A stretch of DNA of 64,000 nucleotides from an uncultured Alphaproteobacteria bacterium (GTDB taxonomy: Bacteria > Pseudomonadota > Alphaproteobacteria > Rs-D84): positions 2,413 through 66,412 of the forward strand of contig CALXLG010000004.1 in the NCBI GenBank assembly GCA_944389135.1, given 5' to 3'. Shown one piece after another: positions 5,311-56,976 of this stretch; position 1 is the first letter of the stretch; every line of letters starts with the position of its first letter. The notes beneath the pieces are model-generated. The model did no database searches. It worked only from the letters and a program-made list of their open reading frames with translations, and had not been told where the DNA came from. The position numbers were made by a program, and so were the translations under genes.

Positions 5311-8300
5311 TTATTCCATGCTGGTGGTAATAACATCACCATATACACCGAACTGTTCAGAACCGATATAACACTGCAGATGCTTACCAACTTCGTTCAT
5401 CCATTCGTCAATGGCTTCACGTTCTGCTTTATCCAACTGAGCATCCTGTACACTTTTTGTTATGTAATAGGTCAACAACCCACCACCAACACCGCCAACG
5501 ACAGAGCTAACACCTGTTGCGATTGCACGTCTTTTTGTTTCATTTTTATCCACAGTAGTCGTGGCTGTAGAATAAGCTTCATCTCTACATGCATCTGCTA
5601 ATTTATCTAATTCGGTCTTTGCTTTCGTCCTAGCTTTTGTCAGTTGATCATCTGTAACAGAACTACTATTGCTCCTTTTTTGGTCTTCAAGAGTTTTTAA
5701 AGCTGTCATTGCGTCATTGACCGTATTAATAATTGTATAAGAAACATTCAGCTCCTCTGCAACTTTGATAGCATTATCTGAATATTGCTTAGCTGTTGCA
5801 TAATTGCTATCTATATTATTTCTTGCGCTACTAGCAAGACCCGCACAATTTCCTGCACGCGCACCTAATTGTCCACTTGCAGTGTTAGCTTTTTTATTTG
5901 ATTGTAAACCGGTTAATCCACCAAAGATGTCACCTGTTGCAACAGCGTCACCAAAGAAACCGCCACCAACGCCACCACCCAGTACACCCAGTGCGGTCAT
6001 CCAACCTGCAATCTTTGGCTGCGCCTCTTTTGCGTCCTCACGGGCAGCACTGCCAACATTTGCAGAGATTTCTTCCAATACACTGGATGGTATCCAGCTG
6101 CCACATGTAAATGTATCGCCCGCTGCATAATACGCTGTTGCCCAATCGGCACCCGAACGTATCGCATCTTGGATATATTTGTCGTCTGACTGAATGTTTA
6201 TACGGATACGGCAGAACGAACCATACAAATCATTACTTGCAACGAAATCATTTGCCTGCAACCCAGATACAGTATAATTAGACGGTACCTTGTTGTTTTT
6301 CAACTTTACCCACAAGAATGTACTGCCCATATCTTTATTACCCATGATACCACCAGAATTGCTGGACATACACATATTCTGTTGTTTTGTAAGCTTTGCG
6401 TTATATTTCGCTTGTGCTTCCATTTCCAAATCTGCAATCAAATCTGTAAATATTTGCGCTTGGGCTTTGCTCTCTGCCAACTGGTCTTTTGTTACCATTT
6501 TTGCAAACATATACATACCACTTGCGTCATCACAACGCCCAGATGCACCAGAACCGTTTTGTGTTGTACACAACAAATTCCCATCTACGTCTTGGTCTTG
6601 AACCATTGTCGCAGTTGTAGATACGTTATATGTACCAGCATCTAACCAACCTTGGCGAACACTGCCGGAACTGCCCCAAGAACTTGCCGAACTTGCATTA
6701 CCAGCCTGTGCACGAGCCATTTCAGCCTTGATATGTTCTGCACAATTTGGATCGGCTTGGACTGTATTTATACACAAACCTAAAATAATTGTATGATCCA
6801 AAACACCACCGACCTTATTCATACTGGCATTAAACGCATCATCGTTCGTATTGGTCAATGATGAATATATGTCTGTACGGTTACGATAACAATTCTGATA
6901 ATCTGTACCACACTGCACTTTAACACAGTTTGTCGCAGTTAATTTGCAATTTTGTTCCATCTGGTCTAATGCACTTTGACTATAAGAAGACGCCAATCTT
7001 GCATTCAAAGATGCAACAACACCAACTGGGTCACCACCGTTATCTGCAGATGTAAACAAACGATCAAACAAGCTGTTGCCATTATTAAATATGTTGATTG
7101 TTATCGCACTACCTTCGGTTGCGTCTAATTTTGCACCAGCATATTGACATGCAATATCATTATTAACAACAGCTTCGCACTCTGATTTTATTGTTTCCAA
7201 AGTACTTGGGTTCGTAACACCTTTTACTGTATTTGAATTGTTAAAAGCAGATGCATAACACGCAGCCCCGCTACCTTCGCCACATGCCAACATTGCACAT
7301 GAAGAAATAGTTTCAGAACAACGCTTCTTCGCTTCTTCATCAAACTGTACAATCAAATCGTCAATCTTTACGCTTAATGATGCATTCATACGTTTTTCAT
7401 ATGCTTCAGAAAACATTTCTGTATGATTATCAGGATCTTGCAACTGAGATGCACTTGGCATAGCACCATTTCCAATTAACGTCGCATAACAGTACTGATT
7501 TGTACCAATAGTATCCATACACTCGTTGCTTAAAAAGTCTTTTACAGAACTTTTTGTTGTTGTCGTCGCACCGCCATTATCAGATGCGCTTTTTTCCTGC
7601 ATTTTATCTGCGGCATCTGCCAATGCAGTTGCGCTTCCTTCTTTACATCTATATGGATTGCTGGCACATGCGTTTAAGAAACATTGGTCAATAACTTTAT
7701 AACATGTAGAAACCGCGTTAACTGCCGCCAATGCCCTACCTTCAGAAATTAAAATACCAACACGACTGTCTGCCGTTGGGTTTGCAGACGTGTTTGTTGT
7801 ACCAAACAATTCTTTGATACCATCACTTTGGCAACGCGCCAAGGTTGATTCACAGAATAATTTTTGCTTCTTGAATTCGGTATCGCTTGTACACAATTCA
7901 AAATCAGAACCACAAACGTCTGATTTCTGCAAACAACTTGTATATTTCTTTACACAGTCGCTTGTATCATAACGATTGCTTATTTCAGCCGCAGAAATTA
8001 ACTGTCCCAAGACACTGCCTGCCGTTGGGTAAGTATATTCACCACTTGAATTCTTTGTTGCCAATGCGGTTTGACTGCTTGTACCAAACAAAGAGTTTAT
8101 ACCAGAAGCATTACACATTGCCAACGTACCAGAACATACCGCCTTTCTAGAAAAGAACAGCGTGTTATTTGTACATTCTTCAAAATTACTGCCACAAGCA
8201 TCGCTTCCTTTCAAGCATTCTGTGTATGCATCAATACACTCGGAGTTTTCTAATAAACTTGACGTGGTCGCCGTCGTTCCTGTTGAACTAGAAACATATG

Positions 8301-35451: not shown

Positions 35452-37463
35452 AAAAAATAATTTTTGCATCTTTGTTGTGTTTTCTAAACGTTATTGCATA
35501 CGGCGCTACTTCCATTGATATAAATACACCGAAAACGATTACTGCCGATAAAATTGAATACGATTTAAATACAGACACAATAAAAACATCTGGCGAAACA
35601 GAAATAACAAATACATCTGGTCAAAGAATGACTTTAACAGATTCTTATATAACAAAAGACGGTTCTAGTCTATCAGGTAATGATATACAATTATGGTTAG
35701 GCAATCATGTTTATATAGAATCTGACAACATTACACGTGAAGGTGCCGATACGATTGCTCTTGATGCAACATTTACCGCCTGCGATAATTGTGATGCATA
35801 TGGCGATGCATGGAAAATTTCAACAACTAAAATAATTCACGATATGGATCGCAGGATGTTAAGTTTCTATAACCCTGTGCTATGGACTTATGACATACCT
35901 GTATTTTGGTTGCCTGTATTTGAAATGCCTGACCCTGGTATAAAATATAAAACGGGTTTTTTAATGCCTGATTTTGAATCAACTAATAACATGGGGACTC
36001 AAATAAATATACCGCTTTATATATCTATATCAGACACCCATGACATTACTTTTACAACATCATATATTACGCAAGAAAACCCTTTGTTTCAAATAGAACA
36101 CAGGTTAAATATGCCTCATTCTGAATATAGGACAAGTGGTGCCTTTACTCATAACAAGGAAGGCGAAAACCGCTGGTATATATTTAATAACGACGTCATA
36201 GAACTGGGTGAATACGCACGTGCAACAATCTTCTTGGAAAGAGCATCCGATAAAACATTTTTACAAAAGTACGGCTTTTATGATGACCAACCATACTTAG
36301 ATTCTGGTGCAACCTTAGAATTATTTGGGCAATCTGGTTATGTTGTTGCAGATGCACATATCTTCCAAGAACTGCGTAGCGCAACAGGCATTTATTCTGC
36401 ACCTTCAGGAAACATATTACCGAACATACGTGGCGTTTATCAAACAGCCCCAATATATAAAGAAACTTATGCGACATTTAGCACGGATATATTAGGAATT
36501 TCTGGGGACGGAACATCTTCGCAACGATTGGTTGGCGATGCCAGAATTACTTCACCATGGACACTATGGGGCGGGAACCGTTTAACAGCAAGTGTGTCTG
36601 CCCGATATGATGTATATAATTTTGACAAAACACAAATGGTTAATATGCAGGAATTTTCTGGTTTAAAAGACCGCTTTTTACCTAGTGGTTATTTAGAATG
36701 GGGTTTGCCTTTATTCAAACCAGGGAACAACTGGACGCAAGTAATTGAACCAAAAGCAAGACTGACAGTTATGCGCACAACAGAAGAAGACCAATTGGCA
36801 TTAAACAATGATTCGGCTGGTGCCTTCTTATCTGACACAACATTATTTTCAGATAACAGATTTGCAGGTTTAGACTTGTGGGAGAACGGTACGTATGCCG
36901 ATTATGGTGTTCGCTGGGCAGCGTTTAACCCAAACGGGAAATCTTTTGAATTATTCTTAGGGCAAACATATGATTTTGAAGAACGTGCTTCAACTGACCC
37001 AAACAGTGGTTTTCATAATGGTGCATCAGACTATGTCGGTCGCATAAAGTATAATAATATGAAATGGGTTAACTTTGCCAGTCGCTTCAGACTGTCCCAA
37101 GAAGATTTGTCCTTAAGTCATATGGAAACCTCTGCTATTATTGGGAACTCTAATAATTTTATTAATATTGGTCATATTTGGTCACAACGTTTTATAGATT
37201 CTCAGACACTTGCGGATGATATAAACGAAATAACCGCAGGTGTTGGAATTAAGTTATCAAATCGTTGGTCTATACGATTTAATGCAATTTACAATATGAC
37301 TTTTGATAAGTTTCAAAGACATTCTGGTGGTATATTCTATAATCACCCATGTTATTATTTATCTGCGGAATATCGTCATGATAACGCAGTTAAAGAAGAT
37401 TATGTCGGTACAACAACTTTCCAATTCAGATTTGGAATGAGCATTGATGGACAAAGATATTAA
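35448..37463 (+). CDS. lptD: LPS-assembly outer membrane protein LptD
   Basis: OstA-like N-terminal domain and a large beta-barrel. Sits downstream of lptF/G. Confidence 0.85.
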   Translation: MKKIIFASLLCFLNVIAYGATSIDINTPKTITADKIEYDLNTDTIKTSGETEITNTSGQRMTLTDSYITKDGSSLSGNDIQLWLGNHVYIESDNITREGADTIALDATFTACDNCDAYGDAWKISTTKIIHDMDRRMLSFYNPVLWTYDIPVFWLPVFEMPDPGIKYKTGFLMPDFESTNNMGTQINIPLYISISDTHDITFTTSYITQENPLFQIEHRLNMPHSEYRTSGAFTHNKEGENRWYIFNNDVIELGEYARATIFLERASDKTFLQKYGFYDDQPYLDSGATLELFGQSGYVVADAHIFQELRSATGIYSAPSGNILPNIRGVYQTAPIYKETYATFSTDILGISGDGTSSQRLVGDARITSPWTLWGGNRLTASVSARYDVYNFDKTQMVNMQEFSGLKDRFLPSGYLEWGLPLFKPGNNWTQVIEPKARLTVMRTTEEDQLALNNDSAGAFLSDTTLFSDNRFAGLDLWENGTYADYGVRWAAFNPNGKSFELFLGQTYDFEERASTDPNSGFHNGASDYVGRIKYNNMKWVNFASRFRLSQEDLSLSHMETSAIIGNSNNFINIGHIWSQRFIDSQTLADDINEITAGVGIKLSNRWSIRFNAIYNMTFDKFQRHSGGIFYNHPCYYLSAEYRHDNAVKEDYVGTTTFQFRFGMSIDGQRY

Positions 37464-37474
37464 AGGATAGAGAG

Positions 37475-38299
37475 ATGAAGCGTTCTTTTTTAACATTTTT
37501 ATCTTGCTGTTTTCTAACCTTGCCTGCTTTTTCTGCAAGCGTGGTTGCCAGCGTAAATGGAACACCAATTACCGACACAGACATTACAGCCCGAACAACT
37601 CTTATGAATAAACAAGGCAAAACGTCAACAGACAATCGAAAACAAGCACTACAAAACATAATTGATGATAATGTCAAACTAACTTATGCGTCAAATTTTG
37701 GTGCGGTGCCTGATGACGAAGATGTTGAAAAAGAACTAAAAAAATTAAATCTGGGCGATTTGTCCGCTTCAGAAAAAGCAATGGCAAAATCCGCAATGAA
37801 GGCAGATATTGCATGGCAGATAGTTGTTGCAAGAACAGTTCTGCCAACAATAGAAGTATCTAAAGAAGACATAGCCGCAGAAAAATCAGAACTTGCACGT
37901 GAACATGGATTGCCTATTGAAATGACTATTGTCAGACTTGTTGATATACCAGCAGACGTTGCAACAAAATTAACAAAGCCGAAAAGTTGCGATGCCGCAA
38001 TAAAAATGGCCGAAGATTTAGGTGGCGTGCCACAAAAATTCACGGCAGTTCAATATGAACTATCCGAAGACATTCGAAAACGAGTTGTAGACCTGCCAAA
38101 GTTGACGTGGTCTCCAGTTGTTGACCGTTCGGTATTACTTGTGTGCAGTACTAAAAAAACAGACGAGTATGGAAAATTAGACGAGATAATCAAGCAAAAT
38201 GCTATGTATAAGCAAGCTATGTTTATCGCAGACCAACAACTAAAACAACTACGTCGCAAAGCGGTTATTGTAATAAATGATGATAGGTATGAATTATGA
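37475..38299 (+). CDS. SurA N-terminal-domain-like periplasmic chaperone
   Basis: Signal peptide. Conserved position after lptD. No obvious PPIase domain. Confidence 0.5.
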   Translation: MKRSFLTFLSCCFLTLPAFSASVVASVNGTPITDTDITARTTLMNKQGKTSTDNRKQALQNIIDDNVKLTYASNFGAVPDDEDVEKELKKLNLGDLSASEKAMAKSAMKADIAWQIVVARTVLPTIEVSKEDIAAEKSELAREHGLPIEMTIVRLVDIPADVATKLTKPKSCDAAIKMAEDLGGVPQKFTAVQYELSEDIRKRVVDLPKLTWSPVVDRSVLLVCSTKKTDEYGKLDEIIKQNAMYKQAMFIADQQLKQLRRKAVIVINDDRYEL

Positions 38300-39396
38300 A
38301 GCCGGTATTATTTAACTTTTCTGATGCGGAATTAACAGACTTTATTGAAAAACTGGGGCAACCTAAGTTTCGTGCTAAGCAAATTCGTGAATGGTTATTG
38401 CGTGGCGCACCAGATTTTGCGTCTATGAAGAATTTGCCAGAAAAATTGCGTAAAGAATTAGATGAAACTGCACAAACACTGCCTGTGAAAATTGTAAAAA
38501 AATTAGAATCATCCGATGGTCAAACTACTAAGTTCTTATTAGAACTAAATGATTGCGAACAAATAGAATGCGTTTTAATGCGAACAAGTTATGGCAATAG
38601 CGTATGTGTAAGTTCTCAGGCTGGTTGCGCAATGGGTTGTAAATTCTGTGCCAGTACCCTTTTAGGCTTAAAACGTAATCTGACAGTAAATGAAATATTC
38701 TCGCAAATTCTGATTGCACAATGGGAATTACGAAACGATAAAAATTCAGAACGTTCAATTCATCCAAATGGTGACGCTAATAATGGCGATGTGTCTCATA
38801 TTGTTGTTATGGGAACGGGGGAACCTTTGCAAAACACAGAAAATGTTATTGGTTTTATAGAACGCGCAAATAAAGATATGGGTATAGGCTGGCGCAAGAT
38901 AACAGTTTCTACTTGTGGCATTGTACCTGGAATTAAAGATTTAACAGCATGGGGCAGACCTATAAACCTTGCAATATCCCTGCATGCACCAACAGATGAA
39001 TTACGCAGTCAAATTATGCCGATTAATAATAAATACAAATTATCAGAAGTTTTGGACGCAGCTTTTGAATTTTCAGACCTGCATAATCGCCAACTGATGA
39101 TAGAGTATATATTACTTGGTAAAAAGAACGATAAAGGCGAAACAGAACTGTTTAACTGCGATACAGAATATGCAGAAAAGTTGTCTGAATTATTAAAAGA
39201 CAAAAATTGTATGGTAAACTTAATTCCTTGGAATGCTGTTGATGAACGTGATTTTGCATCACCTTCGGGAAATGCGGTTCATAGGTTCCAAGATATTTTA
39301 ATAAAAAATGGGATTCACACCAGAATAAGACGCGAACGCGGGCAGGATATAGGGAGTGCTTGTGGGCAATTGCGTCTAAACAACAAAAAGATATAA
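38296..39396 (+). CDS. rlmN: 23S rRNA (adenine2503-C2)-methyltransferase RlmN
   Basis: Radical-SAM CAMGCKFC motif. The N- and C-termini align with RlmN. Confidence 0.9.
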   Translation: MKPVLFNFSDAELTDFIEKLGQPKFRAKQIREWLLRGAPDFASMKNLPEKLRKELDETAQTLPVKIVKKLESSDGQTTKFLLELNDCEQIECVLMRTSYGNSVCVSSQAGCAMGCKFCASTLLGLKRNLTVNEIFSQILIAQWELRNDKNSERSIHPNGDANNGDVSHIVVMGTGEPLQNTENVIGFIERANKDMGIGWRKITVSTCGIVPGIKDLTAWGRPINLAISLHAPTDELRSQIMPINNKYKLSEVLDAAFEFSDLHNRQLMIEYILLGKKNDKGETELFNCDTEYAEKLSELLKDKNCMVNLIPWNAVDERDFASPSGNAVHRFQDILIKNGIHTRIRRERGQDIGSACGQLRLNNKKI

Positions 39397-40814: not shown

Positions 40815-40846
40815 AAAACCCGCAAATGCGGGTTTTGTTTTATTTA
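40815..40846. terminator. bidirectional terminator (second copy of the same hairpin)
   Basis: aaaaacccgcaaatgcgggttttgtttt. Confidence 0.6.
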
Positions 40847-41487
40847 TTTGGAATAATTTTTATTTCAACACGACGATTTTGCTGGCGCCCCTCGGCCGTT
40901 GAATTAGAAGCTATTGGATTAGATGACCCCAGCCCCATAATTTCAAATCTGGACGCCTTTACACCCTGCCCTTGCAAATATGCCGCAACCGCACTTGCGC
41001 GTTGTTGCGACAAAGTCTGATTGTATTGTGCTGTACCTGTGCTGTCTGTATAGCCCAATACCATTACAGTAGAGTTATCATATTTATTCAATACTTTTGC
41101 AACAGAATTTAATGTCGCATAAAAACTTGCGTTTATATCTGACGAATCTGTCTTAAAAGTAATATTACCTGGCATAATCAAACGAATACTGTCATTATCA
41201 CGAACAACACTTACACCGGTTGAAGCCAGTTCCTGACGTAATTCAGCCTCTTGTACATCCAAATAATAACCAACACCACCACCAAGTGCAGCACCAGCCA
41301 ATCCACCAACCAATGCGCCTTTACCACTATTACCAGCAACCAAAGCCCCTGTAGCTGCACCAGTTGCAGCACCAATTGCAGTTCCCCATACTGCTTTAGA
41401 GGTTTGTGCCTCCCCCGTATAAGGATTTACTGTCGCGCATGCACTTAGCATAGAAGCAATCATTAAACCTGCTAATAATTTTTTCAT
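40840..41487 (-). CDS. OmpA-family lipoprotein with glycine-zipper region
   Basis: Lipobox MLSAC. GxxxG-rich segment. C-terminal OmpA domain (GYTDSTG...RRVEIKI). Confidence 0.7.
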   Translation of the reverse strand: MKKLLAGLMIASMLSACATVNPYTGEAQTSKAVWGTAIGAATGAATGALVAGNSGKGALVGGLAGAALGGGVGYYLDVQEAELRQELASTGVSVVRDNDSIRLIMPGNITFKTDSSDINASFYATLNSVAKVLNKYDNSTVMVLGYTDSTGTAQYNQTLSQQRASAVAAYLQGQGVKASRFEIMGLGSSNPIASNSTAEGRQQNRRVEIKIIPNK

Positions 41488-41960
41488 AAATCATTCTCCT
41501 TTCTTTTGACCATACTATTGTAATCATAATATTTAAAAATTTCAAAAAATATTATAAAAAAAGGAATCCATCCAAATAATTTACATTTTATCGTTAATGT
41601 ATAGTATCCATAATCAACACATGTATGATTCCGTTGTCTTTGGTTATACCTGTTTTATAACTTCATTATCCGCACAAATAGCAAAATCAGCAAATTATAT
41701 GATGTTATCGGAAGATTTGTACAAACACATTTTAGATGTTTTATATCTATAATTTACATTTCTGTAAATATTACAACCTATTCACAAGAATCAAGACGAT
41801 TACTCTTTAATCAGTTTACCCCCATATTATTGCTTGATTTTTTTGATATATTTATTCATACTTTTACATAGAGTCCACATGGGAAATGGGTTCGGGTCCT
41901 TCAAAAAGATCATAGTTTGTAGCAATGTGATTCTCATATTGCAATCCCGCACGGTAAAGT

Positions 41961-41982
41961 GGCGCGGAAGCGCCTTTTTATT
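41961..41982 (+). terminator. rho-independent terminator (ggcgc-GGAA-gcgcc plus U5)
   Basis: Perfect 5 bp GC stem with a GNRA-like loop and a T-run. Located inside the leader of the lipoprotein operon. Confidence 0.5.
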
Positions 41983-41986
41983 GATT

Positions 41987-42115
41987 CCCCGCCTTTGGTC
42001 GGGGAGCCGTCGGTTATAAAACAGGGCTTGCCCGAAAACTGGCGGGGTCATTTTACAAACTATGATTTTTTGAACTCCCCGACCGTCAAATTCCATTGGC
42101 GGTCTTATGTTTTTT
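41987..42115 (+). promoter_or_regulatory. candidate attenuator/riboswitch-like leader
   Basis: Terminator hairpin 42081-42104 plus U-run lies just before the ribosome-binding site. An alternative 8 bp pairing (41997-42004 ggtcgggg with 42077-42084 ccccgacc) and a local hairpin (41987-42003) give mutually exclusive structures. Confidence 0.35.
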
Positions 42116-42133
42116 AAGAAAGGAGTCGGTAAG

Positions 42134-43504
42134 ATGCAAAAATTTATGCTTTTGACTAGTATTTTAGTTTTATCTGCATGTGGAGGAGGCTCAGGTGGTA
42201 GCTCTGCCAATAGCACAACGCCACCTACTAATCCAGAAATCCCCACTGGGACAATATGGCAAGAACCAACTGTATCAGAGGATGTCGCCAACAGTAATAA
42301 GCAAATTACAAGTATGCGATCTGCAATTAGCAATTCAACCAAAGTTGTTGCATATGTAGAAGAACAACTTGAATCATTTATAGAAACAGCTTCTGTATCC
42401 CAACCTACATCGTTAAATACTACTAATCGTGCAGCTTTTACATGGATGGCACCAAGTACAGGCAACAACTTATCAAAAGATGAACAAGCACTGGAAATCT
42501 CTAAATTAAGTGAATGGTTGCTATTAGATACAACTACAGAAGAAGATATCGTAGCAGTTTTTAATCACGACAAACAAAAGTTGCATAAAGCGATGCATGT
42601 TTTAAGTAAAGGTAACAATCCATGCTTTATTGGCGGAAGTGCAACTGAAACCGCTGCTTGCTTTAAAAATACCTGGGTACAAAATAACAGCTCTGCAATT
42701 GAAGAATTTGAATCAAACGGAAAATTAGAAACGTTTAATTTAAATGATATAGATTTCAAAATGATAGAAGGTAACAAAACAGAGACTTTTGAAATAGTCG
42801 TTAACGAAAACGGAAAAATTACGGGATTGCATTTTAGAGACAAAAACAGGGAACGTATTGGTGATTCAAATGATTTTGATTTTGTTGAAATGTTAGGACC
42901 TGATGATGCCAAAGTTGAAGTTCAAGCAAAATTGTCTTATGAAAGTCACGGTAAAAACATAGGAACAAGCGGTTTAAAATATGCGGATTTTGGTTTGTTA
43001 CGTTTTAATTCCGAACAACCGGGGTTTGAATTTGAAGAAATTATGCCATATGCCGGTGGCTATGAGGCCAAACGAATAGATAAATCTGACATTGAAAATA
43101 CAGTAACATTTAATGGTCACGCAATTGGACAGGCGGGTAATACAGAATTGGCTGACGACAGCGCAACGTTGGTATTTGATAAAGCCAGTGGTGACGAGAC
43201 ATTTTCAGCTTCATTTGATAACTGGTACGACATCAATGTAGTAAAGAATGATACAGGAATCATATTTACATTCACAGGCGACGCCAAAGATGGACCAACT
43301 TTATCTACCCCGACAATAAGTACACCTGGTGGAACCAATGGTGATATAGAAATCATTGGATTTGAAACGGCATACTATGGTGATTCCAAATCTCCATCAG
43401 AAGCTACTGCGTTATTTAATTATTCACAGGATGTAAATGGTCTTGGTGGCGAAAACGCCGACTATACACATGTCAATATTAGCTTTGGTGGCAAGGCAGA
43501 ATAA
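42134..43504 (+). CDS. surface-lipoprotein candidate (TbpB/fHbp-like)
   Basis: aggag ribosome-binding site 8 nt upstream. Lipobox LSAC followed by a GGGSGGSS flexible linker. C-terminal beta-rich domain. Confidence 0.5.
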   Translation: MQKFMLLTSILVLSACGGGSGGSSANSTTPPTNPEIPTGTIWQEPTVSEDVANSNKQITSMRSAISNSTKVVAYVEEQLESFIETASVSQPTSLNTTNRAAFTWMAPSTGNNLSKDEQALEISKLSEWLLLDTTTEEDIVAVFNHDKQKLHKAMHVLSKGNNPCFIGGSATETAACFKNTWVQNNSSAIEEFESNGKLETFNLNDIDFKMIEGNKTETFEIVVNENGKITGLHFRDKNRERIGDSNDFDFVEMLGPDDAKVEVQAKLSYESHGKNIGTSGLKYADFGLLRFNSEQPGFEFEEIMPYAGGYEAKRIDKSDIENTVTFNGHAIGQAGNTELADDSATLVFDKASGDETFSASFDNWYDINVVKNDTGIIFTFTGDAKDGPTLSTPTISTPGGTNGDIEIIGFETAYYGDSKSPSEATALFNYSQDVNGLGGENADYTHVNISFGGKAE

Positions 43505-44845
43505 TTGAAACGCGGTCTTTTAATATTAATCATACTAATTCTGCCCAATGTTGTTTGGGCAGAATTAAATAAAGAAAAAGAATTTATAGTCTCCGCATTG
43601 GATGCGGTAAAACTGGCGGGAAAATTCGTTGAACATGGCGATTATGGTAATGCTTTGCAAATTCTGAACAAAATGCCCCCATTACAAAACGCCTCACTAG
43701 AAATAGAACGTTGGTTTTTATTGGCACAAATAGCATCACGAAAAAATGATTTTGATACTGCAATAGACATCTATAAAAAAATCTTAAACGCTCAACCAAA
43801 CTTAGCAAGAGTCCGTTTTGATTTAGCTGTATGTTATATGAAAATAGGTCAATGGTCGCGTGCAGATTATCATTTGCGATTGGCAATGTCAGGAAAAGAT
43901 TTACCAAACAACATCAAAAATTTGATGAATTACTATCGCTATATAATTCGTCAAAATAAAAATTGGAATATTTGGTTTAATTTCGGGGCCGCACCAGATA
44001 ATAATATAAACTCATCTGTTGGTGGCGAAGAGTGCGTGATGACGATGTTCGGAAAAATGTGTCGCCAATTACCCGATCCTGTTTCTGCAATAGGGTTTAA
44101 CTTTTCTGGTGGCGGAGATTATGAATTTAAACTATCTGACCAATGGCGATGGAAATCAAATACCGATATTTATACAAATGTATATAATCAACACAATTTC
44201 GATGACTTATATCTATCTTTTGGCACGGGGCTACGATACATATGGTCGCGAGGTGATGTGGGGCTGACTACAATCGGTGCAAGGCGATGGTATGGTTGGG
44301 AAGAATATAATTGGTCTTTGGGGGCAAAATTAGATACGAATTATGATTTCAATCGCAAGTTATCGGGTAGTTTGCATTTTAGATTTATGAATAATTTCTA
44401 CGATGATTTCGGCGAATATCTAGATGGGCAGACATATAGCGCAACAGCTAGATTATTTTATTCTCTGAATTCATCTATGTATCTATCACTACGTAGCGGA
44501 ATTGAACGCGAAACTACTAAAATTTCTTTGTATTCTAATTGGCGTCCCAGTGCAGCAATTGGATTTGGTGCCGAATTACCATACGGGATACATATTTATT
44601 TAGAGCCGAGTATCTACATGGCATTCTATGATGCGCCAAGGTGGACTATACAAAACGACAAATTTTCACAAATTATAGAACATAGTTATACAACTCGATA
44701 TGCGATATCTATATCAAATAATAAATTAGATATATGGGGTTTTGTTCCAACGTTGACGTTCAGTTATACAAAACGAGAATCTAATATATGGCAAAGGGAA
44801 TACAATAAAACCGCCATTGAATTTAGTATGCAACAGCGGTTTTAA
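43505..44845 (+). CDS. TPR plus C-terminal beta-barrel outer-membrane protein (Slam/DUF560-like)
   Basis: TTG start immediately after the upstream stop. Signal peptide, then an N-terminal TPR region, then a beta-barrel ending ...MQQRF. Confidence 0.5.
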   Translation: MKRGLLILIILILPNVVWAELNKEKEFIVSALDAVKLAGKFVEHGDYGNALQILNKMPPLQNASLEIERWFLLAQIASRKNDFDTAIDIYKKILNAQPNLARVRFDLAVCYMKIGQWSRADYHLRLAMSGKDLPNNIKNLMNYYRYIIRQNKNWNIWFNFGAAPDNNINSSVGGEECVMTMFGKMCRQLPDPVSAIGFNFSGGGDYEFKLSDQWRWKSNTDIYTNVYNQHNFDDLYLSFGTGLRYIWSRGDVGLTTIGARRWYGWEEYNWSLGAKLDTNYDFNRKLSGSLHFRFMNNFYDDFGEYLDGQTYSATARLFYSLNSSMYLSLRSGIERETTKISLYSNWRPSAAIGFGAELPYGIHIYLEPSIYMAFYDAPRWTIQNDKFSQIIEHSYTTRYAISISNNKLDIWGFVPTLTFSYTKRESNIWQREYNKTAIEFSMQQRF

Positions 44846-45393: not shown

Positions 45394-45459
45394 ACAGCGG
45401 GCTTTGTATGGTATACCTTAATCATACCGTAATTCTGGTGGATGCCATGGGACTGCTGC

Positions 45460-45645
45460 GCCACCTTGCAAAATCGCCCGTTGGGCGTATTTATGCGGTG
45501 CGGCTCCCTCGCACGGCGTTGTCACGCCGGCTGCGGGGCATTCCTGACGGCTCGATTACGCTTGACGCTTATCTCGCCTAGTCATTGTCAAACCCCTTAC
45601 TTCGGGGGTTTTCGTCCCACATCCCCATGCACAAAATAAAATCGC
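45460..45645. repeat. GC-rich hairpin cluster with an exact 18-nt duplicated hairpin (aaaatcgcccgttgggcg)
   Basis: Copies at 45460-45477 and 45628-45645. A further hairpin (aaacccc-ttacttc-gggggttt) lies at 45589-45610. GC content is far above the surrounding DNA. Confidence 0.5.
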
Positions 45646-45666
45646 CCGTTGGGCGATTGTATTTTG

Positions 45667-45743
45667 TGGTGGATGTTGAGGGACTCAAACCCCCGACCCT
45701 CTCGGTGTAAACGAGATGCTCTAATCAACTGAGCTAAACATCC
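45667..45743 (-). tRNA. tRNA-Val (anticodon UAC), CCA-encoded
   Basis: Cloverleaf folds by hand: acceptor GGATGTT/AACATCC, D-stem GCTC/GAGC, anticodon loop TTTACAC, T-stem GGGGG/CCCTC, 3' ACCA. Confidence 0.9.
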
Positions 45744-56053: not shown

Positions 56054-56076
56054 TTGTTGTATAAAAAACATAATAA

Positions 56077-56106
56077 AAACACCGGTAAATACCGGTGTTT
56101 TTATTT
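56077..56106. terminator. bidirectional terminator
   Basis: acaccggtaaataccggtgt flanked by A- and T-runs. Confidence 0.6.
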
Positions 56107-56976
56107 GGTTAACTTTTCAATTAATTCTTGCATTTGCATGCGCGTTGCAAACGAAAGAACTATTTGCCCTGCCCCACCACGCTTTTCTTGAAGTTTAACA
56201 GGCACACCTAATACGGACTTTATTCTGTTTTCTATATCCTTTACAGTATCCGCATCTATTGTATTTGAACTATGCGCACGACTTTTTACTGACCTAGCAG
56301 ATATTTTTACCTTTTTTTCGGTTTCTGCGACAGACATCTTATTCGCAATAATTTCATGCGCCAACGCAACGGGATTTTCTGCAACCGCAATCGTTCTAGC
56401 ATGAGATGCCGATATCTTCCCCTGCTCTACCATTTCTTTTACCTCTGCCGGTAATGCAATCAAACGCAAAGAATTTCTTATATAACTTTCTGATTTGCCA
56501 ATAAGCCTTGAAACATCCGCTAATTCATAGCCACATTTATCCATCAGGTTTTCATACGCAGCCGCTTCTTCTATTGGATTCAAGTTTTCACGTTGAACGT
56601 TTTCTATCAACGCAATTTCCATTGCGTTTTCATTCGTTATATTTTTTATTAATGCAGGTATTTCATTCAAACCAGCCATTTTACTGGCACGAAAACGCCG
56701 TTCACCTGCAACAATTTCATACATATACGGTCGTCCTGTTACAGAACGTAATAATATTGGTTGCAGTACACCTTTTTCTTTTATTGATGCCGCCAATTCG
56801 GCTAATTCAGAATCAGAAAAAGTTTTACGTGGCTGGTCGGGATTTGCCCCAATTTGCACCAATGGAATTTGTTTAACAACCACACGTTCACTGCCAGTTA
56901 AAATTGAAATATCTGGAACACTTCCCATTTCTTCTTTTAAATCTGCCAAGCCACGTCCTAATCCAAACTTTGACAT
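56101..56976 (-). CDS. parB: chromosome partitioning protein ParB
   Basis: ParB box GERRFRA and a helix-turn-helix. Confidence 0.9.
   Translation of the reverse strand: MSKFGLGRGLADLKEEMGSVPDISILTGSERVVVKQIPLVQIGANPDQPRKTFSDSELAELAASIKEKGVLQPILLRSVTGRPYMYEIVAGERRFRASKMAGLNEIPALIKNITNENAMEIALIENVQRENLNPIEEAAAYENLMDKCGYELADVSRLIGKSESYIRNSLRLIALPAEVKEMVEQGKISASHARTIAVAENPVALAHEIIANKMSVAETEKKVKISARSVKSRAHSSNTIDADTVKDIENRIKSVLGVPVKLQEKRGGAGQIVLSFATRMQMQELIEKLTK

What the first reader, a model, noticed from the sequence alone, without database searches (positions are those of the whole stretch)
41961..42133. Leader of the lipoprotein/Slam operon with terminator/antiterminator architecture and a 3-codon uORF
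The 5' leader is a GC-rich island. Two intrinsic terminators lie inside it: ggcgcGGAAgcgcc plus U5 at 41961-41982, and gaccg...cggtc plus uuauguuuuuu at 42081-42115, the latter ending 7 nt before the ribosome-binding site. The 5' half of the second terminator can instead pair perfectly (8 bp) with ggtcgggg at 41997-42004. That segment is itself sequestered in a local hairpin, ccccgcc-uuug-gucgggg. Mutually exclusive structures of this kind are the signature of attenuators, riboswitches and T-boxes. A minimal uORF, atg att ttt tga (42062-42073), abuts the antiterminator strand. This suggests conditional expression of the surface lipoprotein, for example in response to a metabolite or ribosome stalling.
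Basis: seen in the sequence. Interest (0 to 1): 0.6.

Follow-up and report, generated by a model that had tools for sequence, protein, structure and literature searches.

The report
Phage-type structured leader before lipoprotein operon
The GC-rich stretch in front of the surface-lipoprotein/Slam genes is a conserved, strongly folded RNA leader of about 250 bases whose core resembles a phage small RNA (sRNA-Xcc1); it carries two terminator hairpins and sits in front of different surface-protein genes in related bacteria and in one phage contig, so it looks like a mobile regulatory module, not a lipoprotein-specific riboswitch.

Summary
This unit has a promoter-like site, hairpin H0, a 21-bp long-range helix P0 and terminator T1. 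It also has an 88-nt three-way junction (41997-42084) and terminator T2, which ends 5 nt before the ribosome-binding site.

The junction matches Rfam sRNA-Xcc1 at 34-40 bits, below the family threshold of 53. It sits 50 nt from the start codon, as canonical members do. It also has their RCCA-like tail and their 3' hairpin overlapping P1.

Four lineages carry the leader, including one viral contig. Compensatory changes support P0, T1, T2 and arm 1. The downstream gene differs between lineages. The leader is absent from the closest lipoprotein relative and from three distant lipoprotein-Slam operons.

Folding of the full leader favours P0 plus T2. The proposed antiterminator helix P1 costs about 24 kcal/mol. 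No riboswitch or T-box matches, and the 3-codon uORF is not conserved.

Best reading: a phage-derived, Xcc1/C4/CI-like leader that terminates by default. How read-through is triggered is unknown. I rate it a new variant of a known kind.

The parts
41836..41864 (+). Promoter-like site: -35 TTGATT (41836-41841), 17-nt spacer, -10 CATACT (41859-41864), ending 6 nt before hairpin H0.
   Evidence: The same layout occurs 6-9 nt before H0 in L005, L010 and L009 (A[AC]CACT/AATACT-type -10), in L138 (TTGATT-17-TACACT) and, for the -10 only, in L139 (TATAAT). It scores 8 of 12, below the cut-off of the scan. Function is inferred.
41871..41893 (+). Hairpin H0: GAGUCC, an 11-nt loop containing GGGAA, then GGGUUC.
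   Evidence: Present in four lineages. It pairs with G.U wobbles only on the + strand; in L010 one of the six pairs is broken.
41900..41921 (+). 5' arm of long-range helix P0 (A41907 is bulged).
   Evidence: Inverted repeat I1. P0 appears in the minimum-energy fold of every chromosomal lineage. Between window and L139 there are 7 Watson-Crick double compensatory pairs plus 2 changes to wobble; between window and L005 there are 2 double compensations. The duplex with 42041-42074 has E = -34.4 kcal/mol, z = -7.5.
41922..41942 (+). Hairpin A, enclosed by P0.
   Evidence: Found in the minimum-energy folds of window, L005 and L139. Absent in the viral copy L138.
41941..41950 (+). Conserved unpaired motif GCAAUCCCGC.
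   Evidence: Invariant in window, L005, L009, L010 and L139. Unpaired in the minimum-energy folds. Role unknown.
41952..41984 (+). Terminator-like hairpin T1. Core GGCGC-GGAA-GCGCC at 41961-41974, followed by U5; the hairpin is extended by A-tract/U-tract pairing.
   Evidence: Listed by the scan. The core folds at -9.2 and the extended form at -16.2 kcal/mol. Three different stems occupy the same position in other lineages (GCACC/GGUGC in L139, CCGC/GCGG in L138), each followed by a U-rich tail.
41987..41993 (+). C-rich segment CCCCGCC. It can pair either with GUCGGGG 41998-42004 (local 'anti-P1' hairpin) or with GGCGGGG 42041-42047 (hairpin C).
   Evidence: Conserved in all lineages; it reads CCCCGAC in L138, which gives 7 of 7 pairs. 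In the full-length ensemble the hairpin C pairing has probability 0.98-1.0 and the local hairpin about 0.
41997..42084 (+). sRNA-Xcc1-like three-way junction. P1 is 41997-42006 with 42075-42084. Arm 1 is 42007-42014 with 42038-42045 and has an inner hairpin GGG-CUUG-CCC at 42024-42033. The arm-2-equivalent segment plus junction J is 42044-42074.
   Evidence: Rfam RF02221 scores 37.7 bits, E = 1.7e-4 in a 2-kb search. Relatives score 39.7, 37.8, 36.2 and 33.6 bits. The isolated 88-nt segment folds into P1 plus two arms at -35.8 kcal/mol. Arm 1 shows half-compensations and, by my reading of the L138 sequence, a U-A to C-G double change.
42054..42074 (+). 3' arm of P0. It overlaps the arm-2/J part of the junction.
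   Evidence: Same evidence as for the 5' arm. P0 and P1 cross each other, so they are mutually exclusive as nested structure.
42062..42073 (+).
   Evidence: Present in the window. It reads ATG TGA in L139 and is absent in L138. It lies inside P0 and J. I judge it incidental.
42081..42115 (+). Terminator-like hairpin T2: GACCGUCAA-AUUCCA-UUGGCGGUC at 42081-42104, followed by UUAUGUUUUUU. It shares GACC (42081-42084) with the 3' strand of P1.
   Evidence: Listed by the scan. It folds at -12.2 kcal/mol and its pair probabilities in the full leader are 0.70-0.90. Compensatory changes are G-C to A-U in L139 and A-U to U-A in L005. The U-rich tail is strongest in L139 (UUUUUU). A canonical Xcc1 copy in Aeromonas (L017) has the same overlapping hairpin.
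42120..42136 (+). Ribosome-binding site AAGGAG (42120-42125) and start codon (42134) of the lipoprotein gene. The signal peptide is MQKFMLLTSILVLSAC.
   Evidence: Sequence read and ORF list. The Slam gene is 43505-44845, matching PF04575 at 1.6e-32.

Best explanation
Window 41871-42118 is one transcribed 5' leader. It is a mobile, phage-derived regulatory module, not a device specific to the lipoprotein.

**Shown**
- The leader is conserved well above the neighbouring coding DNA.
- It is strand-specific: the G.U pairs work only on the + strand.
- Compensatory changes support H0, P0, T1, arm 1 and T2.
- Its core is an 88-nt three-way junction that resembles sRNA-Xcc1 in fold, in distance to the start codon, and in its 3' tail and hairpin.
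- The same leader precedes unrelated surface-protein genes in another bacterium and in a viral contig.

**Inferred mechanism**
- Transcription starts a few nt before H0.
- The nascent leader folds into P0 plus hairpin C. This leaves CUCCCCGACC free, so T2 (and before it T1) forms and most transcripts end before the ribosome-binding site.
- Expression of the lipoprotein and Slam then needs the alternative fold. In that fold GGUCGGGGAG pairs with CUCCCCGACC (P1) and removes the base of T2. Alternatively it needs a terminator-resistant polymerase.
- Because P0 locks P1 out by about 24 kcal/mol, switching would need an outside event. Candidates are cleavage of the leader (RNase P at the GGU start of P1 or RNase III in the 21-bp P0), a competing RNA, or a protein.
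- The released junction plus T2 may also persist as a small RNA of about 90-120 nt, as sRNA-Xcc1, C4 and CI RNA do.

The self-complementary pair P0 plays the part that the seqA/seqB or a/a' sites play in the P4 and P1 immunity leaders.
For: - **Structure beyond chance:** z = -8.6.
- **Covariation:** P0 has 7 double compensations between window and L139. T1 has three different stems. T2 has two double compensations. Arm 1 shows half-compensations and, by my reading of L138, one double change.
- **Conservation:** The core 41985-42104 is 87-88% identical to L005 and L010. Housekeeping genes at 37000-39380 are 71-72% identical, the lipoprotein gene 69%, and the 29 nt after T2 40-48%.
- **Xcc1 resemblance:** CM hits of 33.6-39.7 bits in every lineage except L138. 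The start codon lies 50 nt after P1, against 41-55 nt in most of 73 canonical phage copies. Tails are GCCA, ACCA or GUCA, and a hairpin overlaps P1 as in canonical L017. The isolated 88 nt folds as the junction.
- **Default-off energetics:** Minimum energy is -104.8 kcal/mol with T2 pair probability 0.7-0.9. The P1-forced fold is -81.0.
- **Modularity:** The cargo is an OMP beta-barrel gene in L139. In viral contig L138 it is an 82-aa ORF plus two lipoprotein genes beside a terminase gene.
- **Promoter-like site:** It occupies the same position in all lineages.
- **Literature on the analogues:** sRNA-Xcc1 is an 88-nt RNA by RACE and Northern blot (PMC2996969). C4 is cut out of a leader by RNase P at a GGW motif, and its loops pair with sites around the ribosome-binding site (PMC5320573). 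P4, P1, P7 and N15 use structurally similar RNA systems, called seqA and CI RNA in P4 (PMC3632133).
Against: - No transcript data exist, so the promoter, T1 and T2 are sequence predictions only.
- P1 and the C-rich and G-rich strands are invariant within the clade. The key antiterminator pairing therefore has no covariation support here.
- P1 overlaps T2 by only 4 nt, so a shortened P1 and T2 could coexist.
- The Xcc1 match is below the Rfam gathering score.
- The conserved canonical loop motif (ACCC-GNRA-GGGG) is replaced by GGG-CUUG-CCC.
- The canonical complementarity between arm 2 and the ribosome-binding region is not significant here (z about 0 to -1.2).
- U tracts after T2 are weak in L005 and L138.
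- The high conservation could partly reflect recombination at a shared module boundary and not selection on function.
Confidence: 0.5

Rival explanations
1. The main product is a stand-alone small RNA. The Xcc1-like junction plus T2 (about 41997-42115, 90-120 nt) would be a trans-acting sRNA made by termination at T2 and 5' processing. The lipoprotein genes would be expressed only by incidental read-through.
For: The type member is a discrete 88-nt RNA (PMC2996969). T2 with its U tail looks like an sRNA 3' end. A viral relative with the same P1 (L140) is followed 15 nt later by a strong terminator and no adjacent gene start. The isolated segment folds cleanly.
Against: No other site complementary to the arm-2/J segment exists in the 64-kb window. 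The element always lies 46-50 nt before a start codon on the same strand, so downstream genes must be transcribed through it. This reading is compatible with the best explanation and does not replace it.
Confidence: 0.25
2. The leader is a classical metabolite- or translation-sensing attenuator or riboswitch dedicated to the lipoprotein/Slam operon.
For: The three-tier alternative pairings exist and are conserved. T2 abuts the ribosome-binding site.
Against: No riboswitch or T-box model matches. The uORF is not conserved and has no ribosome-binding site. P1 is 23.8 kcal/mol above the minimum-energy fold in the full leader. The leader is absent from the closest orthologue and from distant lipoprotein-Slam operons, and it is attached to unrelated cargo elsewhere.
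Confidence: 0.08
3. The leader is a functionless relic of a phage or island junction. On this view its conservation reflects recent transfer or gene conversion, or it is a DNA-level element such as a MITE or recombination site.
For: The locus is a rearrangement hot spot next to tRNA-Val, with a partial copy of the tRNA 3' end and a HerA fragment in L010 and Slam lost in L002. Identity drops sharply at the cargo boundary. A 21-bp inverted repeat could be read as terminal repeats.
Against: Compensatory substitutions in four helices across lineages that are only 49-80% identical argue for selection on RNA pairing. G.U pairs make the helices strand-specific. The element is single-copy in the window, and two GTDB species-representative genomes each held one match to a 20-mer from the leader. 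There is no target-site duplication.
Confidence: 0.12

Closest known systems
sRNA-Xcc1 (Rfam RF02221)
   Same: Both have a three-way junction closed by a 9-10-bp G/C-rich P1 that starts with GG. Arm 1 carries an AUA(C/A)AA stretch, a 3-bp tetraloop hairpin and a following GAA. Both have an RCCA-like tail and a hairpin overlapping the P1 3' strand. Both lie on the same strand about 50 nt before a start codon and occur in mobile DNA.
   Different: The score is 34-40 bits against a threshold of 53. The inner hairpin is inverted (GGG-CUUG-CCC in place of CCC-GNRA-GGG). Arm 2 is replaced by a segment that pairs 140 nt upstream (P0). There is no significant complementarity to the ribosome-binding region. 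The cargo is a surface protein and not an antirepressor. Extra upstream modules (H0, hairpin A, T1) are present, and a U tract follows the 3' hairpin.
C4 antisense RNA of P1/P7, CI RNA/seqA of P4 and CB RNA of N15 (leader-encoded processed immunity RNAs)
   Same: In both cases a structured RNA embedded in the leader of the genes it controls carries a segment complementary to another site in the same leader. In P4 the outcome is premature transcription termination. Specificity segments vary between lineages while staying complementary (PMC5320573; PMC3632133 and the titles of its refs 60, 111 and 112; here).
   Different: There is no Rfam C4 or isrK match at E <= 10. The complementary site lies upstream only. 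The controlled genes are envelope proteins and not lytic or antirepressor genes. Processing by RNase P is untested. The details of P4 seqA/seqB/seqC are from my own knowledge plus the cited summaries.
Intrinsic-terminator attenuators (trp- or pyr-type leaders)
   Same: Both have tandem hairpins with U tracts in a 5' leader and overlapping alternative pairings (1:2, 2:3, 3:4).
   Different: There is no conserved leader peptide, no tRNA-binding or ligand-binding domain, and the antiterminator is strongly disfavoured at equilibrium.

Membership tests
sRNA-Xcc1 (RF02221) | Covariance-model score at or above the Rfam gathering score (53 bits). | tested here: not met
   Scores are 37.7 (window), 39.7 (L010), 37.8 (L005), 36.2 (L009) and 33.6 (L139) bits. 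L138 was not reported. Canonical copies score 69-73 bits.
sRNA-Xcc1 (RF02221) | Three-way junction: P1 of 7-12 bp closing two arms. | tested here: met
   The isolated segment 41997-42084 folds into P1 (10 bp) plus arm 1 plus a weak arm 2 at -35.8 kcal/mol. The CM alignment covers model positions 1-87. In the full leader this fold is not the minimum-energy fold.
sRNA-Xcc1 (RF02221) | Conserved arm-1 core AAUACAA-N-ACCC-GNRA-GGGGAAUA. | tested here: not met
   AUAAAA (AUACAA in L005) and the following GAA/AAA are kept, but the hairpin is GGG-CUUG-CCC with no GNRA loop.
sRNA-Xcc1 (RF02221) | Same-strand position 41-55 nt before the next start codon. | tested here: met
   The distance is 50 nt in the window, 49 in L005 and 46 in L138. 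Most of 73 canonical copies fall at 41-55 nt.
sRNA-Xcc1 (RF02221) | Arm 2 plus J complementary to positions -27 to -4 of the downstream start codon (as I found for canonical copies). | tested here: not met
   Canonical copies: median -18 kcal/mol, median z = -2.2. Window: -14.8 kcal/mol, z = -0.9. L005, L010, L139 and L138: z from +0.3 to -1.2.
sRNA-Xcc1 (RF02221) | Downstream gene of antirepressor type (KilA-N, BRO, ORF6N, AntA, Rha, P22_AR). | tested here: not met
   In canonical copies these six families sum to 54 matches among 62 next ORFs. Here the next genes are a lipoprotein plus Slam, an OMP beta-barrel, or an 82-aa ORF plus phage lipoproteins.
Terminator/antiterminator attenuator | Intrinsic terminator directly upstream of the regulated gene, conserved. 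| tested here: met
   T2 is found by the scan and has compensatory changes in 4 lineages. Termination itself is not testable here.
Terminator/antiterminator attenuator | An alternative helix that excludes the terminator and is reachable. | tested here: inconclusive
   P1 shares only 4 nt with T2. P1 is invariant, so it gives no covariation signal. It lies 23.8 kcal/mol above the minimum-energy fold in the full leader. Co-transcriptional kinetics and trans factors were not modelled.
Terminator/antiterminator attenuator | A sensing device: leader peptide, ligand aptamer or tRNA-binding domain. | tested here: not met
   The uORF is not conserved. No riboswitch or T-box model matches at E <= 10.
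C4 / CI / CB leader-encoded antisense RNAs | Match to the C4 (RF01695) or isrK (RF01394) models. | tested here: not met
   Neither is listed at E <= 10 for 41000-43000.
C4 / CI / CB leader-encoded antisense RNAs | A segment of the RNA complementary to target site(s) in the same leader, co-varying with them. | tested here: met
   P0: 21 bp, z = -7.5, with 7 double compensations between window and L139.
C4 / CI / CB leader-encoded antisense RNAs | Excision from the leader by RNase P or other RNases. | not testable with these tools
   Only suggestive features are visible: P1 starts with GGU, and the tail is RCCA-like (PMC5320573 for the GGW motif).
MITE / DNA inverted-repeat element | Multiple copies, terminal inverted repeats with a target-site duplication, and strand-neutral pairing. 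| tested here: not met
   The element is single-copy in the window, and two GTDB species-representative genomes each held one match to a 20-mer from the leader. The flanks differ. The helices contain G.U pairs that would be mismatches on the other strand.

The most novel reading that the evidence does not exclude
The leader is a domesticated phage 'RNA immunity' switch of the P4 CI / P1 C4 / Xcc1 type. Its hypervariable but self-complementary address helix (P0) keeps surface-protein moron genes, here a Slam-dependent lipoprotein, switched off by premature termination. A matching or competing RNA from a related phage, or RNase processing, would open the lock. Display of surface antigen would then be coupled to phage state or superinfection and not to nutrients.
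Probability: 0.15. Interest if true: 0.75.

Novelty: new variant of a known kind. Interest (0 to 1): 0.5.

Why it matters
- Surface lipoproteins exported by Slam are usually discussed as nutrient-regulated virulence factors. Here the control region is a mobile, phage-type RNA module shared with other envelope genes. This points to expression logic inherited from phages.
- The leader offers a compact test system: two terminators, a 21-bp co-varying lock helix and an 88-nt junction. It could show how Xcc1-like RNAs work, which is not established.
- The comparison set also shows that canonical sRNA-Xcc1 copies sit before antirepressor genes, with an arm complementary to the ribosome-binding region. 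This suggests the whole Rfam family acts as a C4-like immunity RNA, not as a generic trans-acting sRNA.

Tried and rejected
- **BLAST:** The leader has no match in the plasmid or phage collections.
- **First structural pattern in viral contigs:** no match.
- **Exact-protein look-up of the lipoprotein:** not on record.
- **Coding on the + strand:** The ORF through the leader (52 aa in the window, fused to the lipoprotein in L005) is rejected. Frames differ between lineages and indels shift them.
- **Coding on the - strand:** A small ORF ending ...KYIKKIK* looked conserved, but it is frameshifted in the window. Its changes are the P0 compensations.
- **HerA pseudogene remnant:** HerA homology in L010 ends near 7500-7523, outside the shared block. 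Profile and tblastn searches found nothing significant in the window or L005. The block is also present in viral contig L138, which has no HerA.
- **Island att site derived from tRNA-Val:** The tRNA-end repeats lie elsewhere.
- **Second target of the arm-2/J segment in the window:** none found.
- **Complementarity of arm 2 to the ribosome-binding region in this clade:** not significant.
- **Custom covariance model:** I did not build one from the phage set. That set was selected with the core motif, so it would be biased against this variant.
- **Error:** One constraint (the 'P1+arm1 forced' run, -62.9 kcal/mol) used a wrong arm-1 register and is disregarded.
- **Correction of an early estimate:** My eye estimate of about 92% identity was corrected to 87-88% for the core.
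Full report
**Observation**

The interval sits in the 646-nt gap between an OmpA-like gene (40840-41487, minus strand) and a lipoprotein gene. The lipoprotein gene has its ribosome-binding site AAGGAG at 42120, its ATG at 42134 and a signal peptide ending LSAC. A Slam gene follows at 43505-44845, matching PF04575 at E = 1.6e-32.

GC content rises to 0.58 at 41950-42049 against 0.18-0.37 around it. It lists 3 sites in 1.1 kb where shuffles give 0.5.

The proposed alternative pairing is a perfect 10-bp inverted repeat, 41997-42006 with 42075-42084. It shares only GACC with the 5' strand of the second terminator.

The region folds far better than shuffles. For 41940-42135, z = -4.2. For 41895-42118, the fold is -95.8 kcal/mol with z = -8.6.

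**What the scans say**

No riboswitch, T-box or leader family matches. The one relevant hit is sRNA-Xcc1 (RF02221) at 41997-42092: 37.7 bits against a gathering score of 53, with E = 1.7e-4 in a 2-kb search. It is filtered out in the whole-window scan. The plasmid and phage BLAST collections hold nothing similar.

**Relatives**

The lipoprotein is rare.
- Its 86%-identical relative (L002-L004) has a short, unrelated upstream region and no such element.
- Its 65%-identical relative (L005-L008) has the element.
- A 20-mer from the leader found only two GTDB species representatives. Both are uncultured Alphaproteobacteria MAGs (L009, L010).
- Three distant lipoprotein-Slam operons (L011, L013, L014) lack it.
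- Two more divergent copies came from pattern scans. L139 is a 241-kb metagenome contig. L138 is a 23.6-kb viral contig that also carries a terminase gene.

In L139 the next gene is an OMP beta-barrel (PF13505, 3.5e-16). In L138 the next genes are an 82-aa ORF and then two lipoprotein genes. The leader is therefore a module that travels with different envelope-protein genes. It is not a conserved feature of lipoprotein-Slam operons.

**Conservation**

| Region compared with the window | Identity |
|---|---|
| Housekeeping DNA 37000-39380, vs L005, L009, L010 | 71-72% |
| Lipoprotein region 41739-43620, vs L005 and L009 | 69% |
| Core of the leader 41985-42104, vs L005, L009, L010 | 87-88% |
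| Core, vs L139 | 79% |
| Core, vs L138 | 72.5% |
| 29 nt between T2 and the ATG, vs L005, L009, L010 | 40-48% |

**Anatomy and covariation**

This section draws.
- **Promoter-like site.** A -35 TTGATT, a 17-nt spacer and a -10 CATACT end 6 nt before the first hairpin. The same layout recurs in all lineages, with -10 variants AATACT, AACACT, TACACT and TATAAT.
- **H0 (41871-41893).** Present in four lineages, with G.U pairs that work only on the + strand. L010 breaks one of the six pairs.
- **P0 (41900-41921 with 42054-42074).** This is a 21-bp long-range helix with one bulge. Between window and L139 its distal half is entirely different in sequence yet still paired, with 7 Watson-Crick double compensations plus 2 changes to wobble. 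Between window and L005 there are two double compensations. The duplex scores z = -7.5.
- **T1.** It has three different stems at the same position (GGCGC/GCGCC, GCACC/GGUGC, CCGC/GCGG), each followed by a U-rich tail.
- **Arm 1 of the junction.** It shows G.U to A-U and U.G to C-G changes. By my reading of the L138 sequence, it also has a U-A to C-G double change.
- **T2.** It shows G-C to A-U and A-U to U-A double changes.
- **Invariant strands.** The G-rich and C-rich strands (CCCCGCC, GGUCGGGGAG, GGCGGGG, CUCCCCGACC) are almost invariant. P1 and its competitors therefore have no covariation evidence within the clade. In L138, CCCCGCC becomes CCCCGAC, which perfects the local hairpin.
- **Phage copy.** L138 lacks the P0 5' arm and hairpin A. 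It has a short local arm 2, as canonical Xcc1 RNAs do.

**Not coding**

ORFs through the leader differ in frame between lineages. A minus-strand mini-ORF is frameshifted in the window, and its substitutions are the P0 compensations. A HerA fragment upstream in L010 matches PADLOC HerA positions 402-568 of 579. It ends before the shared block, and profile searches find no HerA signal in the window or L005.

**Energetics**

- The full leader 41871-42118 has a minimum free energy of -104.8 kcal/mol. That fold contains P0, hairpin C (CCCCGCC with GGCGGGG), T1 and T2.
- T2 pairs have probability 0.70-0.90. P1 pairs have probability about 0.
- Forcing P1 gives -81.0 kcal/mol.
- P0 and P1 cross, so they exclude each other as nested structure.
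- The isolated 88-nt segment 41997-42084 folds into the Xcc1-type junction at -35.8 kcal/mol.

The equilibrium state of the intact leader is therefore 'terminator formed'. The junction fold is available only if P0 is absent or removed.

**What sRNA-Xcc1 is**

- The core motif of canonical sRNA-Xcc1 occurs in at least 120 viral contigs.
- In 83 unique copies P1 is 7-12 bp. In the 73 copies with a called next ORF, that ORF usually starts 41-55 nt after P1.
- RNAalifold finds compensatory changes in 13 of 17 pairs.
- Among 62 next ORFs the main Pfam matches are antirepressor families: KilA-N 13, Rha 9, P22_AR_N 8, AntA 8, Bro-N 8 and ORF6N 8.
- Arm 2 plus the junction strand is complementary to positions -27 to -4 of that start codon. 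The median duplex energy is -18 kcal/mol and the median z is -2.2.
- Three canonical copies from N. gonorrhoeae, a P. aeruginosa plasmid and Aeromonas score 69-73 bits. By my reading of the ORF translations, and by one BRO annotation, they precede KilA-N, BRO and ORF6N genes.
- The Aeromonas copy has a 3' hairpin, GGCCACCAU-ACUCUG-AUGGUGGUC, overlapping the last 4 nt of P1. L005 has nearly the same hairpin, GACCGCCAU-UUCUG-AUGGCGGUC.

Published work describes sRNA-Xcc1 in four settings:
- It is an 88-nt RNA in Xanthomonas (PMC2996969).
- It lies upstream of symE in integron cassettes (10.1101/2025.06.18.660453).
- It lies upstream of an ORF6N gene in APSE phages (10.1101/2020.03.17.996009).
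- It occurs in tandem copies in a Xylella island (PMC12189769).

The layout resembles the C4 RNA of P1 and P7. C4 is cut from a leader by RNase P at a GGW motif, and its loops pair around a ribosome-binding site (PMC5320573). It also resembles the P4 seqA/CI RNA system and its N15 counterpart (PMC3632133).

**How the window element compares**

It shares with the family the junction, the position before the start codon (50 nt), the GG start and the RCCA-like tail with its overlapping hairpin.

It differs in five ways:
- It scores below the Rfam threshold.
- It has GGG-CUUG-CCC where the family has CCC-GNRA-GGG.
- It shows no significant complementarity to the ribosome-binding region.
- It precedes surface-protein genes and not antirepressor genes.
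- Its arm-2/J segment pairs with an upstream site in the same leader (P0).

I therefore do not file it as a member of RF02221. I call it a divergent relative.

Six further viral contigs carry RNAs with the identical P1 but other arms and no Rfam match. One lies 16 nt before a lipoprotein gene.

**Mechanism**

The most likely reading is a cis-acting, default-off leader. P0 and hairpin C keep CUCCCCGACC free, T2 (and T1) form, and transcription mostly stops 5 nt before the ribosome-binding site. Read-through needs P1 or a modified polymerase.

Because P1 is about 24 kcal/mol uphill, a trigger outside the leader is needed. Candidates are RNase cleavage, a competing RNA or a protein. The junction plus T2 may also accumulate as a small RNA.

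These steps are inferred. Only the structures, their conservation and the modular distribution are shown.

**Verdict**

- The attenuator idea is partly supported: the architecture holds, but the sensing mechanism and the uORF do not.
- The element is a new variant of a known kind.
- Interest is moderate (0.5).

Noticed in passing
Loci L018-L136 (viral contigs); L015-L017: Canonical sRNA-Xcc1 elements sit 41-55 nt upstream of antirepressor-type genes (KilA-N, Rha, P22_AR, AntA, BRO, ORF6N). Their variable arm 2 plus junction strand is complementary to positions -27 to -4 of that gene's start codon. This suggests the Rfam 'sRNA' family is a C4-like leader/antisense immunity RNA. I did not find this stated in the papers held.
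   Followed up: partly
L140, L141, L145 (about 10216-10300 in L140); L144 4484-4570: Viral contigs carry three-way-junction RNAs with exactly the same P1 (GGUCGGGGAG...AACUCCCCGACC) and the same CCUUUG 5' flank as the window element. Their arms differ (GUAUGUCCAGG...CUAAAGG core) and they have no Rfam match. L144's copy lies 16 nt before a lipoprotein gene (MRRICITMMALGLTAC). L140's copy is followed by a strong terminator.
   Followed up: partly
window 45420-45743: tRNA-Val (45667-45743, minus strand) is preceded by a GC-rich 250-nt stretch. This stretch contains a second degenerate copy of the tRNA 3' end (TGGTGGATGccatGGGACT at 45436) and two copies of the hairpin AAAATCGCCCGTTGGGCG (45471 and 45640). 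They look like scars of repeated integrations.
   Followed up: partly
L010 6595-6642 and 6897-7436: In a related MAG, a copy of window 45627-45674 (the flank plus the first 8 nt of the tRNA-Val 3' end) and a C-terminal fragment of a defence-type HerA ATPase (PADLOC PDLC04103 positions 402-568 of 579) lie between the OmpA gene and the leader. This suggests the leader, lipoprotein and Slam block sits in a decayed tRNA-Val island.
   Followed up: partly
L002 6369-6669: The closest lipoprotein relative (86% identity) keeps only the first 85 nt of the Slam gene before the tRNA-Val flank. That strain seems to have lost Slam while keeping the lipoprotein.
   Followed up: no
L011 3849-3919; L013 2594-2757; L139 1855-1928: Lipoprotein-Slam operons and the L139 cargo cassette lie next to tRNA genes in several unrelated contigs. 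This is consistent with island-borne spread of these surface-protein cassettes.
   Followed up: no
window 41941-41950: The motif GCAAUCCCGC is invariant in all chromosomal copies and is predicted to be unpaired. It could pair with GGCGGGGU (42041-42048), as RNAalifold proposed. Its role is unexplained.
   Followed up: no
window 56055-56141 (minus strand): A sub-threshold BSnc120 hit (34 bits against 114) turned out to be an ordinary bidirectional terminator hairpin (AAAAACACCGGTATTTACCGGTGTTTTT) at a gene end.
   Followed up: yes
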